Source: a virus
Strand: one strand, 5' to 3'
DNA: 25,576 nucleotides
Virus record (IMG/VR): IMGVR_UViG_3300010342_001360
Coordinates: 1-25,576 of that record
The stretch's first letter is position 1. Every line of letters starts with the position of its first letter. Positions 1 to 11,618 of this stretch are shown here, one piece after another. Both the position numbers and the translations under genes were made by a program. Under the pieces are notes generated by a model. The model saw nothing but the letters and a program-made list of their open reading frames with translations, was not told the DNA's origin and made no database searches.

Positions 1-82
1 ACCAGCTTTTTTGGGGGAATGGTGAAAGATATAAACACACCGAAATAATTTAGAAAAAATACTCTATCGGTTTTCTCAGTTT
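1..82 (+). ncRNA. 3' part of Y-RNA-like stem element, copy 1 (5' end cut by window edge), with tRNA D-arm-like module
   Basis: 3' arm ACTCTATCGGTTTTCTCAGTTT (61-82) matches the 3' arms at 1880-1901, 2933-2954 and 9621-9641. It is preceded by a D-arm-like GTG-AAAGATATAAA-CAC (22-38), the same order as copy 2. Confidence 0.55.
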
Positions 83-84
83 AT

Positions 85-166
85 GCCGACTTGGCTCAGT
101 GGCGACAGCACGGGTTTTGTAAACCCGCACCTAACGGTCCCGGGGGTTCGAGTCCCCCAGTCGGCT
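85..166 (+). tRNA. trnT: tRNA-Thr(UGU) with long variable region
   Basis: Acceptor GCCGACT/AGTCGGC, anticodon stem CGGGT/ACCCG with loop TT-TGT-AA, T arm GGGGG-TTCGAGT-CCCCC, 14-nt variable region containing ACC-TAAC-GGT. Confidence 0.88.
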
Positions 167-169
167 CTA

Positions 170-360
170 AGGGATTAGGGATTTGAATGGATAGCAGTAG
201 AGAGGTTAATAGGACGATGCATCTCCGATTTAACAAGCTGAAAAGCTTCTTGCCATTCGCCTGCATCGAGTTAGAATGAAATAGGAACGGTAGGACCGAA
301 CCCTATGGACTATCTCTACGGAATCTATAGGTTTCTATACTAAAAAGATGCAATTTCCCT
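170..360 (+). ncRNA. Candidate structured ncRNA (~190 nt) between tRNAs
   Basis: No ORF. Helices 197-203/313-319, 209-213/302-306, 215-221/262-268, GAAA-capped hairpin 235-248, and a crossing pair 185-190/253-258. Confidence 0.5.
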
Positions 361-368
361 TAAAACTT

Positions 369-441
369 TGCCCCGTTGCGTAACGGTAGCGCGCAAGACT
401 TTGGATCTTGGTCAGTAAAGGTTCGATTCCTTTCGGGGCAA
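369..441 (+). tRNA. trnQ: tRNA-Gln(UUG)
   Basis: Acceptor TGCCCCG/CGGGGCA, anticodon arm CAAGA-CTTTGGA-TCTTG, T loop TTCGATT. Confidence 0.95.
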
Positions 442-560
442 CGAAGCGTGCCGTACCTCCTCTGCTCAGTAACGTTCAAGCATGAAACGAAGCGCGATAG
501 ACAGTTCCGGAACTGATTCTATCTTACCTAACCAGGGTGGTAACAGAAAGCCTGGCAATT

Positions 561-633
561 CGGGGTGTAGCACAGTTGGTAGCGCGTATGGTTTGGGACC
601 ATAAGGTCGTCGGTTCGAGCCCGGCCACCCCGA
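561..633 (+). tRNA. trnP: tRNA-Pro(UGG)
   Basis: Acceptor CGGGGTG/CACCCCG, anticodon arm TATGG-TTTGGGA-CCATA, T loop TTCGAGC. Confidence 0.95.
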
Positions 634-685
634 CAAAATAAACTTTTTATACATAAATAACCTACCCCAGAAGTTTATTTTAAAT

Positions 686-754
686 GCCGACGATCCAGGG
701 CAGAAGACGGGTCTGTAAAACCCCAGCTAGAGGTTTCGAGTACCTCCGGCGGCA
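686..754 (+). tRNA. Atypical tRNA-Tyr(GUA)-like gene (69 nt, reduced D arm, short variable loop)
   Basis: Acceptor GCCGACG/CGGCGGC with one A-G mismatch, GGGT-CTGTAAA-ACCC, T arm GAGGT-TTCGAGT-ACCTC, no canonical D stem. Confidence 0.55.
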
Positions 755-801
755 CTGCGTCTTTTTCGCCTCGTTTTGAAGATATATAGAATAAAACCTA
801 T

Positions 802-1425
802 ATGCCAAGACGAGAAAAAAAGAAATTTCACTTTCTTTATAAAACTACTAATTTAATAAATGGTAAATTTTATATAGGGGTCCATTCAACAGATAATCTT
901 AATGATGGTTATCTAGGGTCTGGAAAAATTTTAAGATATTCTATTAATAAGTATGGAATAGAAAATTTTAAAATTGAAAGATTAGAGTTCTTTGAAGATA
1001 AGGGAAAACTTTTTGAAAGAGAAAAGGAAATAGTTAATGAGTCTTTTTTGCAAGATCCTTCTTGCATGAATTTAAAATCTGGGGGATCCGGGGGATTTAT
1101 AAATGAAGAACATCATAAAAAATGTACTACTGCAGGATTAGAATCCCAATGGAAAGATCCAATTTATTTAGAATGGCACAAGAAAAGACAAGCTAAGAGA
1201 TTTCATGAATTAAATTTATCCCCTCCGGATAATTGGGGATTTAAAGATAAAACCCATTCTGAAGAAACTAAAATCCAAATGTCTTTAAAACATAAAGGAC
1301 ATACTTATCAAAAAGGTAATAAAAATTCCCAATTTGGAACTAAATGGATTACAAACGGAAAAGAAATTAAGAAAATAAAAAATACAGATCAAATTCCGCA
1401 AGGATGGAGATATGGCAAAAAATAA
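802..1425 (+). CDS. GIY-YIG homing endonuclease (Seg-like, NUMOD3-type C-terminus)
   Basis: FLYKTTNLINGKFYIGVH...YLGSG motif, KTHSEETKIQMS repeat. Confidence 0.88.
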   Translation: MPRREKKKFHFLYKTTNLINGKFYIGVHSTDNLNDGYLGSGKILRYSINKYGIENFKIERLEFFEDKGKLFEREKEIVNESFLQDPSCMNLKSGGSGGFINEEHHKKCTTAGLESQWKDPIYLEWHKKRQAKRFHELNLSPPDNWGFKDKTHSEETKIQMSLKHKGHTYQKGNKNSQFGTKWITNGKEIKKIKNTDQIPQGWRYGKK

Positions 1426-9467: not shown

Positions 9468-9512
9468 AATTAGATTTTATATATAATTAAAATTTAACAA
9501 TTTTTTAACAAG

Positions 9513-9549
9513 AAAATATTTTTTTCTATAGAACTTTTGGTTACATTTG
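9513..9549 (+). promoter_or_regulatory. Bipartite promoter for the Y-like RNA/Ro60 unit
   Basis: AAAATATTTTTTT...TACATTTG(CTCTA). Shares TTTAACAAGAAA and GCTCTA flanks with the promoter at 6069-6105. Confidence 0.6.
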
Positions 9550-9577
9550 CTCTATAGAAACTAACAAAGAATTTTTA

Positions 9578-9641
9578 GTTGTAGTAAGAAAAGAGTTACT
9601 TCGATGGCAATTTGAAAAACGCTCTTTTCAGGTTTCTCAAC
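9578..9641 (+). ncRNA. Y-RNA-like element, copy 4 (minimal, no tRNA module), upstream of Ro60
   Basis: GTTG/CAAC and a perfect GAAAAGAG/CTCTTTTC helix with the shared GTAGTAA and AGAGTTACTTCG motifs. Confidence 0.7.
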
Positions 9642-9679
9642 ATTAATTTGCATACTTTTTTAATTTTTAATTTATATGC

Positions 9680-9715
9680 AAGCCCGAGAAACCCTTAGTT
9701 GATCGGGCTTTTTTT
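9680..9715 (+). terminator. Intrinsic terminator
   Basis: AAGCCCGA...TCGGGCTT followed by TTTTT. Confidence 0.75.
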
Positions 9716-9735
9716 GTTAACTTAAAAAGAATAAA

Positions 9736-9867
9736 ATGACAAACGAAATGACCGAGGAACATAAAAAAGCTATTAGCGAAGCAAATAGGGGGAAAACAAA
9801 AAGAAGAAACCCAATGACAGAAGAACATAAAAAAGCTATCAGCAAAGCAAAATTAAAAACCAAATAA
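9736..9867 (+). CDS. 43-aa protein made of two NUMOD3-like repeats (possible endonuclease remnant; missed by the track)
   Basis: MTNEMTEEHKKAISEANRGKTKRRNPMTEEHKKAISKAKLKTK. Confidence 0.55.
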   Translation: MTNEMTEEHKKAISEANRGKTKRRNPMTEEHKKAISKAKLKTK

Positions 9868-9877
9868 TTCTTTATAT

Positions 9878-9907
9878 TTAAACTTAAACTTAAACTTAAA
9901 CTTAAAT
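9878..9907 (+). repeat. Hexamer tandem repeat (TTAAAC)x4 + TTAAAT
   Basis: Seen directly in the Ro60 leader. Confidence 0.85.
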
Positions 9908-9917
9908 TTAATAGTAA

Positions 9918-11618
9918 ATGGCTAAGTACAACACCAAGAGGGAAATTTCTCTCGCAGACCAGAAGAGCGGAGTTGAAAAGACTACTACTCACCAGGGCGG
10001 ACAGGGTTACACCCAGCGTCCAGAAGCGGAACTTATCGGTATCCTCGCAACGGGTATGGGTAACAACTTTTACGAAAAGGAAACTGAACGTGAAAAGAGG
10101 TTCCGTGATGTTCTCGACAAGGTTGCAAAGGTTAACAAGCTTTTCGCAGCTAAGGCACTTATTTACGCTCGTACTATTTTTGGACAGCGTTCCGTTACTC
10201 ACTTCGGTGCAGTTGAAATGATTCCTCACCTTCAGGGGGACCCACTTGCTAAGAAGTTCTTCACCAAGAGGGACAAGAAAGCAGAACGTGGCGGAATTAT
10301 CTGGAGGCTTGACGATATGGCTGAAATCCTTGCAGCATATTTTGCAAAGAATGGCCAGGAAGCATCTCTTCCTAACTCCCTCAAGAAGGGATTCAAGGAT
10401 GCTCTTGAACATGCTGACACTTACGAACTTGCTAAGTACCAGATGAAGAATAGGGGTGTATCACTTGTTGACATTGTCAACCTTGTTCACCCAGTTGAAA
10501 CTCCTAAGAATGGTTTCATCTATATTCCTGAACAGGATTACCTCAAGGCAACTGCTGGAACAAAGTTCGTTGGCAAGGAATACCAGAAGAACGAAAAGGG
10601 CGAAGTCCAGGTTCCTGCACTCCGTGCTCTCGTACTCGGAATTCTTAAGCAGTTCAACACCGTTGAAGATAAGAATACTGAAGCTGGTAAGGTTGTAGCT
10701 GAAAAGGTTAAGAGCGGAGAAATCACTCAGGAACAGGCAGCAGCTCAGCTTAACGAAGCTAAGACTGAAAACTACAAGGAACTCATCGAAACCAAGAAGA
10801 TTGGTTACCTTGCACTTCTTCGTAACATCAGGAATATTCTTAAGACTAACGATACAGTTCTCCTTGACAAGGCGTGCGAACTTCTTGTCGACCAGAATTT
10901 CATCCGCAAGTCACTTGTTTGGCCTCACCAGATTGACCTTGCTCTCGAAGTAATGTTAATCGAATTCAATGGTCGTCAGCTCCAGAAGATTGCAGCAGCT
11001 CTCGATGAAGCTTATGAAAAGTCAATCCCTAACCTTTCTCAGCTTCTTCCAGAAGGAAAGACTGCAGTTGTCTTTGACACTTCAGGTTCTATGGAAGGCG
11101 GATGGGGCGGTGGAATCAAGATTGATGGCAAGCCAAGCAACTCTCGCCCAGTTGATAAGGCAGCTCTTATCGCAGCAACTTTTGCTAAGGGTACCGGCGG
11201 AGACGTCTACCATTTCGGCTCAACTTGCTCGGTTATTAAGGGATGGAATCCAAATGATGCCATCAACACTCTTAAGAAGAGTTTTGCTCGTCATATCGGA
11301 GAATGCGGTCATGGTACTGTTTATTCATCTATTCTTCCTGAACTCGAAAGAGTTGGAGGTGGATACGACAGGATTCTTATCATCACCGACGAACAGGGTG
11401 CAGATTCTTTCGAAGATACCTACAAGAGGTATTCTGGAAAGTATGGAACTCCATACGTTTACTTCATTAACATTGTAGGCTACGGCCCAACAATGGCTAA
11501 GGCTGGAAACAAGGTATTCCGTCTCTTCGGATACTCTGCAGACATCTATGAAAAGATACCTCACTTGGAAATGAACATCAACGAAGTTATCGATGCAATT
11601 AACCGTATCGAAATCTAA
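9918..11618 (+). CDS. rsr: Ro60/Rsr-like RNA-binding protein (TROVE domain + vWA domain)
   Basis: TTHQGGQGY, FYE, KALIYAR...RSVTH, YELAKYQ, DIVNLVHP, YLALLRNIRNI, MIDAS DTSGS, ILIITDEQ, FGYS. Confidence 0.92.
   Translation: MAKYNTKREISLADQKSGVEKTTTHQGGQGYTQRPEAELIGILATGMGNNFYEKETEREKRFRDVLDKVAKVNKLFAAKALIYARTIFGQRSVTHFGAVEMIPHLQGDPLAKKFFTKRDKKAERGGIIWRLDDMAEILAAYFAKNGQEASLPNSLKKGFKDALEHADTYELAKYQMKNRGVSLVDIVNLVHPVETPKNGFIYIPEQDYLKATAGTKFVGKEYQKNEKGEVQVPALRALVLGILKQFNTVEDKNTEAGKVVAEKVKSGEITQEQAAAQLNEAKTENYKELIETKKIGYLALLRNIRNILKTNDTVLLDKACELLVDQNFIRKSLVWPHQIDLALEVMLIEFNGRQLQKIAAALDEAYEKSIPNLSQLLPEGKTAVVFDTSGSMEGGWGGGIKIDGKPSNSRPVDKAALIAATFAKGTGGDVYHFGSTCSVIKGWNPNDAINTLKKSFARHIGECGHGTVYSSILPELERVGGGYDRILIITDEQGADSFEDTYKRYSGKYGTPYVYFINIVGYGPTMAKAGNKVFRLFGYSADIYEKIPHLEMNINEVIDAINRIEI

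What the first reader, a model, noticed from the sequence alone, without database searches (positions are those of the whole stretch)
1..11618. Ro60 gene plus a four-member family of Y-RNA-like stems carrying interchangeable tRNA cargo
Seen: copies at 1-82 (partial), 1751-1901, 2844-2954 and 9578-9641 share the 5' arm GTAGTAA-N5/6-AGAGTTACTTCG and the 3' arm CTCT-N6/7-TTTCTC. These form two helices around a conserved internal loop, and the terminal helix covaries (AAACTG/CAGTTT, AAGTAG/CTACTT, GTTG/CAAC). The apical cargo differs in each copy. The minimal copy lies between its own promoter and terminator just upstream of Ro60. Established: Ro60/Rsr binds the stem of Y RNAs, and bacterial YrlA RNAs carry tRNA-mimic effector domains. 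The stem here does not resemble the GGUCCGA-type Ro site I know. Inference: a phage Ro60 RNP platform with a new Y RNA class and modular tRNA decoys, possibly against anticodon nucleases or for tethering host RNases.
Basis: partly seen in the sequence, partly recalled or inferred. Interest (0 to 1): 0.9.

Follow-up and report, generated by a model that had tools for sequence, protein, structure and literature searches.

The report
Phage Ro60 partner RNAs with tRNA-like cargo
A fragment of a very large phage encodes the ring-shaped RNA-binding protein Ro60 plus several small RNAs that share one conserved stem "handle" but carry different tRNA-like inserts; the same pairing recurs in hundreds of phage contigs and matches no catalogued RNA family, so it is most likely an undescribed class of Ro60 partner (Y) RNAs.

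Summary
Three complete copies (1750-1902, 2843-2955, 9575-9644) and one copy cut by the window edge (1-84) share a handle: a variable end-to-end helix, a bulged U, GUAGUAA, a second covarying helix ending AGAG/CUCU, the invariant single strand UUACUUCG, and UUUCUC on the 3' side. ORF 9918-11618 is a TROVE/Ro60 protein.

A covariance model built here finds more than 340 matches in phage contigs. In 62 loci picked only for having a related Ro60 gene, 58 carry the handle, all 138 copies lie on the Ro60 strand, and in 45 loci the nearest copy is within 1 kb. All 17 modelled pairs show compensatory changes, while the unpaired bases are invariant.

No Rfam family matches, including YrlA (RF02553). 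I found no paper describing it.

The cargo is modular:
- none
- a tRNA without an acceptor stem
- a whole tRNA
- a circularly permuted tRNA like YrlA, sometimes with a built-in CCA

Best reading (about 0.75): a new handle class of phage Y RNAs bound by phage Ro60. Binding, expression and the decoy idea are untested.

Earlier notes of this scan describe similar handle-plus-tRNA-mimic RNAs beside Ro60-like genes on other DNA.

Verdict: new variant of a known kind.

The parts
1..84 (+). Copy A, cut by the window edge: 3' part of a circularly permuted tRNA-like handle RNA. It starts at an encoded ACCA that follows the acceptor 3' strand, and ends with the 3' handle CTCT-ATCGGT-TTTCTC-AGTTT. tRNA-Thr starts at 85.
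   Evidence: 3' arm match. Identical to the 3' end of the complete 170-nt elements L047:1416-1585 and L045:2787-2956, which score 45-49 bits with model R1.
1750..1902 (+). Copy B: handle RNA with a YrlA-like permuted cargo. Order: variable-arm hairpin, T arm, acceptor stem closed by a UUCG loop, D arm. It starts 1 nt after tRNA-Gln(CUG).
   Evidence: R1 40.5 bits, E 1.8e-7. The fold shows the T arm, capped acceptor hairpin and D arm. Its halves are most like the phage's own class II tRNA-Leu genes.
2843..2955 (+). Copy C: handle RNA whose cargo is a tRNA without an acceptor stem (D arm, anticodon arm with loop UUUUGGU read as anticodon UUG, T arm). tRNA-Leu(UAA) starts at 2958.
   Evidence: R1 54.2 bits. 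The Rfam tRNA model matches only positions 10-63 at 2874-2925, 29.3 bits. ARAGORN calls no tRNA there.
9542..9556 (+). Promoter-like motif TACATTTGCTCTATA, containing a TAnnTTTG box, about 20 nt upstream of copy D.
   Evidence: Exact 15-nt motif found only here and at 6098. AGAACTTT-N4-5-TAYATTTGCTCTATAGAA is conserved 30-32 nt upstream of the minimal copy in six relatives.
9575..9644 (+). Copy D: minimal handle RNA of about 70 nt with only a short apical hairpin, ending 274 nt upstream of the Ro60 start codon.
   Evidence: R1 70.6 bits, E 1.5e-14. Fold -15.1 kcal/mol, z -2.0.
9681..9716 (+). Terminator-like hairpin (7-bp GC-rich stem) followed by a run of seven T.
   Evidence: Fold of 9645-9722: -18.9 kcal/mol, z -4.2. 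The simple terminator scanner missed it because of the 15-nt loop.
9918..11618 (+). Ro60 (TROVE + vWA) gene, 566 aa.
   Evidence: Pfam PF05731 above its cut-off. PDB 9KOP/9L5Y phage Ro60, E 1.4e-17. 382 relatives in viral contigs.

Best explanation
These are small non-coding RNAs of a new Y-RNA class, and their shared handle is the docking site for the phage-encoded Ro60 ring.

How they are probably made:
- Copies A-C are transcribed within the tRNA array. The same RNase P and 3'-end cuts that mature the flanking tRNAs would release them, because their terminal helices end 1-3 nt from neighbouring tRNAs.
- Copy D is a separate transcription unit just upstream of Ro60.

How they probably work:
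- Ro60 would recognise the invariant unpaired bases (bulged U, UAA/UUU, UUACUUCG), which are held in place by helices of free sequence.
- The variable apical module is then displayed on the protein. It can be nothing, an acceptor-less tRNA with a real anticodon loop, or a permuted tRNA with a closed or CCA-bearing acceptor end.
- By analogy with Deinococcus Rsr/Yrn1/PNPase and Thermus phage phiLo Ro60/Yrl/PNPase, these modules would recruit or occupy host proteins that bind tRNA or degrade RNA.

Shown here: the structure, the modular cargo and the genomic coupling to Ro60. Inferred: binding, processing and function.
For: Handle structure:
- 85-90% of cells are paired against 44-59% when partners are slid.
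- 17 of 17 pairs show compensatory changes in the set chosen by Ro60 homology alone.
- In that set A9-U313 switches to G-C in 32 of 104 RNAs with no unpaired case.
- The unpaired U8, A15, U31, C33, U35, C36 and U310 are invariant (A15 in 103 of 104) in 104 distinct RNAs.

Coupling to Ro60:
- 29 of 81 motif-anchored loci hold a TROVE gene of 30-99% identity, and all 37 copies are on its strand.
- By my tally, all 13 motif contigs of at least 96 kb have a TROVE gene.
- 15 of 15 model hits in five records of 96-323 kb lie within 21 kb of TROVE on its strand.
- 58 of 62 TROVE-first loci carry handles, 138 of 138 on the TROVE strand.
- Only 40 of 50,697 GenBank phage records match this Ro60.

Controls:
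- No handle beside the Ro60 of Gordonia, Thermus, Vibrio or Caulobacter phages.
- None in 149 of 151 sampled Bacteroidales genomes.

Precedent:
- YrlA RNAs lie near Ro60 on the same strand in 254 bacteria and 22 phages (PMC4201824).
- Phage Ro60 binds two Y-like RNAs and forms complexes with host PNPase (PMC12135203).
Against: - There is no binding or expression evidence.
- The handle lacks the conserved GNCGAA or GGUCCGA motif. Only CG is invariant, and the next base is A in about a quarter of copies.
- Rfam YrlA does not match.
- Four of five handle-bearing fragments of 45-77 kb hold no TROVE gene. They are 11-26% complete, so this is weak.
- Handles, tRNAs and Ro60 all sit in one RNA-rich genome region, and many contigs are related, so part of the association is not independent.
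- A partner protein encoded outside the fetched DNA cannot be excluded.
Confidence: 0.75

Rival explanations
1. The handle belongs to structured RNAs of the phage tRNA operon and serves another partner or purpose, such as a processing or stability clamp or a site for a different phage protein. Ro60 is merely a neighbour in the same RNA island.
For: Copies A-C lie 7-10 kb from Ro60 inside the tRNA array. Four fragments of 48-77 kb carry handles without TROVE. Homing-endonuclease genes co-occur with the handle as often as TROVE does.
Against: - Ro60 is the only non-mobile window gene that co-occurs widely.
- In TROVE-first loci the nearest handle is within 1 kb in 45 of 58.
- In two complete genomes (180 kb and 96 kb) the only handles lie within 6.4 kb of TROVE.
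- The handle stays conserved while Ro60 drops to 30% identity.
Confidence: 0.15
2. They are precursors of working tRNAs (permuted or clamped genes). The handle would be removed or opened during maturation to give decoding tRNAs.
For: Some family members enclose a complete cloverleaf and are annotated as tRNA-Gln, tRNA-Tyr and tRNA-Lys in published crAss-like genomes. Several permuted members encode NCCA after the acceptor 3' strand.
Against: - Copies A and B have no anticodon arm, so removing the handle could not yield a tRNA.
- Copy C has no acceptor stem.
- Copy D and more than half of all family members have no tRNA part.
- ARAGORN calls none of them.
Confidence: 0.06
3. They are a dispersed DNA repeat (mobile element end, homing-endonuclease target) or a chance similarity, not an RNA.
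For: GIY-YIG and HNH homing-endonuclease genes are interspersed with the copies.
Against: - Compensatory base-pair changes are seen in every helix position, with strict strand bias.
- A true chance hit of the 5' arm, in an Enterococcus genome, lacks the 3' arm and scores 15 bits.
Confidence: 0.02

Closest known systems
YrlA / YrlB, the bacterial and mycobacteriophage Y RNAs bound by Rsr/Ro60 (Rfam RF02553; Chen et al. 2014, PMC4201824)
   Same: - Small RNAs encoded on the Ro60 strand within a few kb of the gene.
- The ends pair into a long interrupted stem.
- One form carries a permuted tRNA-like domain in the order variable arm, T arm, closed acceptor stem, D arm (copies A and B).
- A short form has no tRNA part (copy D, like YrlB).
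   Different: - The handle sequence is unrelated to the GNCGAAN0-1G motif, and RF02553 gives no match even at E <= 10.
- There are up to 6-7 paralogues per locus.
- The cargo also comes as an acceptor-less tRNA and as a whole tRNA on the same handle.
- Some permuted members encode CCA.
Deinococcus radiodurans Yrn1 with Rsr and PNPase
   Same: A Y RNA whose tRNA-like part has the standard order with an anticodon-arm-like hairpin, as described in PMC4201824. This resembles copy C. It also provides the tethering mechanism, in which the Y RNA links Ro60 to an exoribonuclease.
   Different: I held no Yrn1 sequence, so no sequence comparison was made. Copy C has a regular 7-nt anticodon loop and full D and T arms. 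No PNPase link is shown here.
Thermus phage phiLo Ro60 with Yrl1/Yrl2 (PMC12135203; PDB 9KOP, 9L5Y)
   Same: It is the closest solved relative of the window's Ro60 (E 1.4e-17). It is a phage Ro60 with two phage-encoded partner RNAs upstream of the gene.
   Different: Model R1 finds no handle in the phiLo locus. The phiLo RNAs were chosen by a CGAA motif and carry no tRNA cargo according to the paper.

Membership tests
Y RNA (functional class: Ro60-bound small RNA) | Encoded close to a Ro60/TROVE gene, on the same strand | tested here: met
   Copy D ends 274 nt upstream of Ro60. 58 of 62 TROVE-first loci carry handles, and 138 of 138 copies are on the TROVE strand.
Y RNA (functional class: Ro60-bound small RNA) | 5' and 3' ends pair into a long stem interrupted by conserved bulges | tested here: met
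   17 pairs, 90% paired, all with compensatory changes. The bulged U and the 3-nt bulge on the 3' strand are conserved.
Y RNA (functional class: Ro60-bound small RNA) | Physically bound by Ro60 | not testable with these tools
   Needs a gel-shift assay or immunoprecipitation.
YrlA (Rfam RF02553) | Match to the family covariance model | tested here: not met
   No RF02553 match in window 1-12000 at E <= 10. The model does hit a Gordonia phage Ro60 locus at 31.5 bits, which is still below the family's gathering score of 69.
YrlA (Rfam RF02553) | GNCGAAN0-1G motif near the 5' end | tested here: not met
   The handle has UUACUUCG followed by A (27), C (24) or U (52) in 104 RNAs. Only copy B in the window reads CGAA.
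YrlA (Rfam RF02553) | Permuted tRNA-like domain (T arm, closed acceptor stem, D arm) | tested here: met
   Met for copies A and B. Not met for C or D.
tRNA (RF00005) | Complete cloverleaf with acceptor stem and anticodon arm | tested here: not met
   Copy C matches only model positions 10-63. ARAGORN calls none of the four copies.
Ro60 / TROVE protein | TROVE domain plus vWA domain with MIDAS motif | tested here: met
   PF05731 30.1 bits against a cut-off of 23. DxSxS (D387, S389, S391), T467 and D491 are invariant. PDB phage Ro60, E 1.4e-17.

The most novel reading that the evidence does not exclude
The Ro60 ring plus a set of interchangeable handle RNAs is a display platform. Large phages would use it to present chosen tRNA parts: anticodon arms reading Lys, Tyr, Gln, Arg, Asn or Cys, or acceptor ends with CCA. 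These would soak up host tRNA-cleaving defence nucleases, or capture host tRNA-processing and RNA-decay enzymes such as PNPase. The system would work alongside the tRNA array, Pth2 genes and NAD-salvage genes found in the same region.
Probability: 0.25. Interest if true: 0.85.

Novelty: new variant of a known kind. Interest (0 to 1): 0.68.

Why it matters
Ro60 and Y RNAs are a conserved but poorly understood RNA-surveillance particle. In bacteria only a few partner RNAs have been characterised.

What this family adds:
- More than a hundred distinct natural variants of one handle with freely exchanged modules. That gives a ready-made mutational map of the presumed Ro60 docking site and a natural experiment on what the effector module does.
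- The family reaches published human-gut crAss-like phages, where members are currently annotated as ordinary tRNAs, and a 634-kb phage. tRNA counts in such genomes are therefore inflated, and a whole RNA class is being missed by annotation.
- If the modules target host tRNA-directed defences, this would be a new counter-defence principle.

Tried and rejected
- **Rfam:** scans at gathering scores and at E <= 10 found only tRNA matches inside the cargo and nothing for the handle.
- **GenBank phages:** blastn of the Ro60 region found no match.
- **Promoters and terminators:** the sigma-70 and terminator scanner gave nothing above shuffles at copy D. A Bacteroidota-type TTTG-N-TAnnTTTG pattern was not enriched in the window. 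A window-specific 15-nt motif was more informative.
- **Green et al. 1998** on the Ro-binding bulged helix is not held. The parallel with a single bulged base plus a 3-nt bulge on the other strand therefore rests on my memory and on the summary in PMC12135203.
- **Working permuted tRNA:** rejected for A and B because no anticodon arm exists.
- **Chance or mobile repeat:** rejected on covariation and strand bias.
- **My simple anticodon parser** caught only 12 RNAs. The list of mimicked anticodons is partly read by eye and is not a statistic.
- **Not pursued:** the lead from earlier scan notes that such handles resemble Dictyostelium Class I RNAs.
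Full report
**What is in the window**

The window is an IMG/VR virus record of 25.6 kb, estimated at about 6% complete. It therefore comes from a phage of several hundred kb. A sister Ro60 gene sits on a 405-kb contig.

The first 9 kb is a tRNA array. ARAGORN tRNAs, and there are further odd tRNA-like stretches. 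GIY-YIG and HNH homing-endonuclease genes are interspersed. ORF 9918-11618 is a TROVE/Ro60 protein:
- Pfam PF05731 scores 30.1 bits against a cut-off of 23.
- The closest solved structure is the Thermus phage phiLo Ro60, E 1.4e-17.
- The vWA MIDAS residues are conserved.

**The observation**

The 5' arm GTAGTAA-N4-5-AGAGTTACTTCG occurs three times, with 0.02 expected by chance. The 3' arm CTCT-N6-7-TTTCTC occurs four times. All are on the + strand at the stated places.

The piece at 1-84 is the 3' end of a 170-nt element that is complete in sister contigs. The terminal helices differ in sequence but stay complementary.

The copies end 1-3 nt from neighbouring tRNAs:
- tRNA-Thr starts at 85.
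- tRNA-Gln ends at 1749.
- tRNA-Leu starts at 2958.

The cuts that mature those tRNAs would therefore free RNAs with nearly flush paired ends. This is inference.

**The family**

An exact-pattern scan of viral contigs returned 81 loci with 78 distinct elements. I aligned 35 minimal copies (A2) and wrote the following structure:
- a 7-bp end helix
- a bulged U
- a 2-bp helix
- an 8-bp helix ending AGAG/CUCU

On A2, 85% of cells pair, against about 51% when the partners are slid. The inner end-helix pairs are 100% paired with four or five pair types each.

Model R1 built from this alignment scores the window copies at 70.6, 54.2 and 40.5 bits and finds nothing else significant. It finds 210 full-length matches in 96 loci.

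**Unbiased test of the coupling**

The first set was collected with the exact 5' arm, so I repeated the test on loci chosen only by Ro60 homology. A profile of 11 phage Ro60 proteins (A1) found 382 relatives in viral contigs. The best 80 loci were kept, and 62 of those were new.
- 58 of the 62 carry R1 matches.
- All 138 matches are on the Ro60 strand.
- The nearest copy is within 1 kb in 45 loci.
- Three of the four loci without a match have under 1.2 kb of upstream sequence.

In this set all 17 pairs show compensatory changes. 90% of cells pair, against 44-52% when slid. The pair A9-U313 is G-C in 32 of 104 RNAs with no mismatch.

The unpaired bases do not vary. The bulged U, four bases of UUACUUCG and a U of the 3' UUU are invariant, and an A of UAA is kept in 103 of 104. 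Free helices around fixed single-stranded bases are what a specific protein or tertiary contact site looks like.

**Coupling to Ro60 from the motif side**
- 29 of 81 loci contain a TROVE gene of 30-99% identity, always on the same strand as the handle.
- By my tally, all 13 motif contigs of at least 96 kb have one.
- In five records of 96-323 kb, 15 of 15 R1 matches lie within 21 kb of TROVE on its strand, and 8 lie within 3 kb.
- Among the window's own genes, only homing endonucleases and Ro60 recur across these loci.
- TROVE genes are rare in phages. Only 40 of 50,697 GenBank records match this protein.

One caveat: four of five fragments of 45-77 kb (11-26% complete) hold handles but no TROVE gene.

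**Limits of the family**

R1 finds no handle beside the Ro60 genes of Gordonia, Thermus, Vibrio or Caulobacter phages. It finds none in 149 of 151 sampled Bacteroidales genomes.

Only 8 exact 5'-arm hits exist in 596 Gb of prokaryote genomes. Five of them are MAG contigs with TROVE next door. The one from an isolate genome (Enterococcus) is a chance 5'-arm match scoring 15 bits.

The handle is present in:
- a 634-kb uncultured phage (LR745206), about 475 nt upstream of its Ro60;
- the crAss-like gut phages cr111_1 and csAssE-Sib, in diverged form (UAGUGA or UGGUGA, with UUACUUCG or UUUCAUCG). There it wraps RNAs annotated as plain tRNA-Gln, tRNA-Tyr and tRNA-Lys just upstream of Ro60.

**Cargo**

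Across the family the apical insert takes several forms:
- absent or a short hairpin (more than half of members; copy D);
- a T arm plus a hairpin;
- a tRNA lacking the acceptor stem, with a regular 7-nt anticodon loop (copy C, anticodon UUG; elsewhere CUU, UUU, GUA, UCU, GCA, GUU);
- a complete tRNA;
- a circular permutation with T arm, acceptor stem closed by a loop, then D arm (copies A and B).

About a third of the permuted lineages, including copy A, encode NCCA right after the acceptor 3' strand. This count was made by eye.

In many permuted and minimal members the 3' side just before CUCU reads GAAAAAYR. In acceptor-less members it reads CUGUU-NN. UUACUUCG stays fixed opposite both. This argues that the 5' strand itself is what is recognised.

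**Comparison with what is known**

Chen et al. 2014 found YrlA RNAs near Ro60 on the same strand in 254 bacteria and 22 phages. Those RNAs carry a GNCGAA motif and a permuted tRNA-like domain. Deinococcus Yrn1 has the other arm order. Thermus phage Ro60 binds two phage Y-like RNAs and forms complexes with host PNPase. An Aravind-group survey noted TROVE proteins in a few jumbo phages.

None of these describes this handle. Rfam's YrlA model does not match it, and my paper searches found nothing.

It therefore works like a Y RNA. It meets the genomic and structural criteria of that class but fails the sequence criteria of YrlA. I file it as a new variant of a known kind.

Earlier notes of this scan report similar handle-plus-tRNA-mimic RNAs beside Ro60 or Ro60-like genes on other DNA. 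These are unchecked AI notes. I used them only as leads.

**Copy D as its own unit**

A 15-nt motif TAYATTTGCTCTAYA, containing a TAnnTTTG box, lies about 20 nt upstream of copy D. Its only other exact occurrence in the window is upstream of an unexplained non-coding stretch of about 480 nt at 6113-6600. The extended motif is conserved 30-32 nt upstream of the minimal copy in six relatives. A strong hairpin with a U-run follows at 9681-9716 (z -4.2).

**Mechanism and confidence**

I put 0.75 on these RNAs being Ro60 partner RNAs. The function of the modules is open. Recruiting host RNA-decay or tRNA enzymes, or acting as decoys for tRNA-cleaving defence nucleases, gets about 0.25 in the strong form.

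The surrounding genes fit a translation-protection or counter-defence region but prove nothing. They include two confirmed Pth2 genes, a suppressor tRNA, and NAD-salvage genes (NadE, an isochorismatase-family protein, NAPRTase).

Noticed in passing
window 7706-8080 and 8776-8848: A Pth2 (peptidyl-tRNA hydrolase) gene has an in-frame TAG at codon 8 and no usable start after it. A tRNA with anticodon CUA (amber suppressor, called tRNA-Pyl by ARAGORN) lies 700 nt downstream. A second, canonical Pth2 is at 25061-25477.
   Followed up: partly
window 6098-6600: A non-coding stretch of about 480 nt, richer in G+C than its surroundings. It is preceded by the same promoter-like motif as copy D and followed by a hairpin with a T-run. 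No Rfam match at E <= 10. Sister contigs hold copies at 97-99% and a 72% identical version (L047, L028). It may be a large structured RNA of unknown kind.
   Followed up: partly
window 1427-1602, 2716-2843, 5397-5462, 5570-5639, 168-368: Oversized or irregular tRNA-like genes and other conserved non-coding pieces sit between the regular tRNAs. Examples: a 176-nt match to the tRNA model with about 100 nt inserted, and a 128-nt piece with acceptor and T arms. ARAGORN calls none of them. Several are 100% conserved in sister contigs.
   Followed up: partly
L123 (crAss-like phage cr111_1) 3784-3915 and L124 (phage csAssE-Sib) 4412-4830: Published gut-phage genomes annotate as ordinary tRNA-Gln, tRNA-Tyr and tRNA-Lys what are cloverleaves enclosed in a diverged form of this handle, directly upstream of their Ro60 genes.
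   Followed up: partly
window 17251-24147; also L109 and L123: NAD-salvage genes (NAD synthase, isochorismatase-family protein, nicotinate phosphoribosyltransferase) lie a few kb from Ro60. Phosphoribosyltransferase genes of the same pathway also neighbour the Ro60 genes of Gordonia phage Rabbitrun and crAss-like cr111_1.
   Followed up: no
window 802-1425, 1955-2548, 3090-3533, 3873-4313, 6663-7292, 11710-12351, 22220-22963: Seven homing-endonuclease-type genes (GIY-YIG, HNH, NUMOD3) are scattered through the tRNA and handle-RNA array. Their relatives recur in most related loci.
   Followed up: partly
window 9737-9910: Between the terminator of copy D and Ro60 lies a 43-codon ORF with an internal repeat (MTEEHKKAIS twice). 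It is followed by four or five tandem AAACTT units just before the Ro60 start.
   Followed up: no
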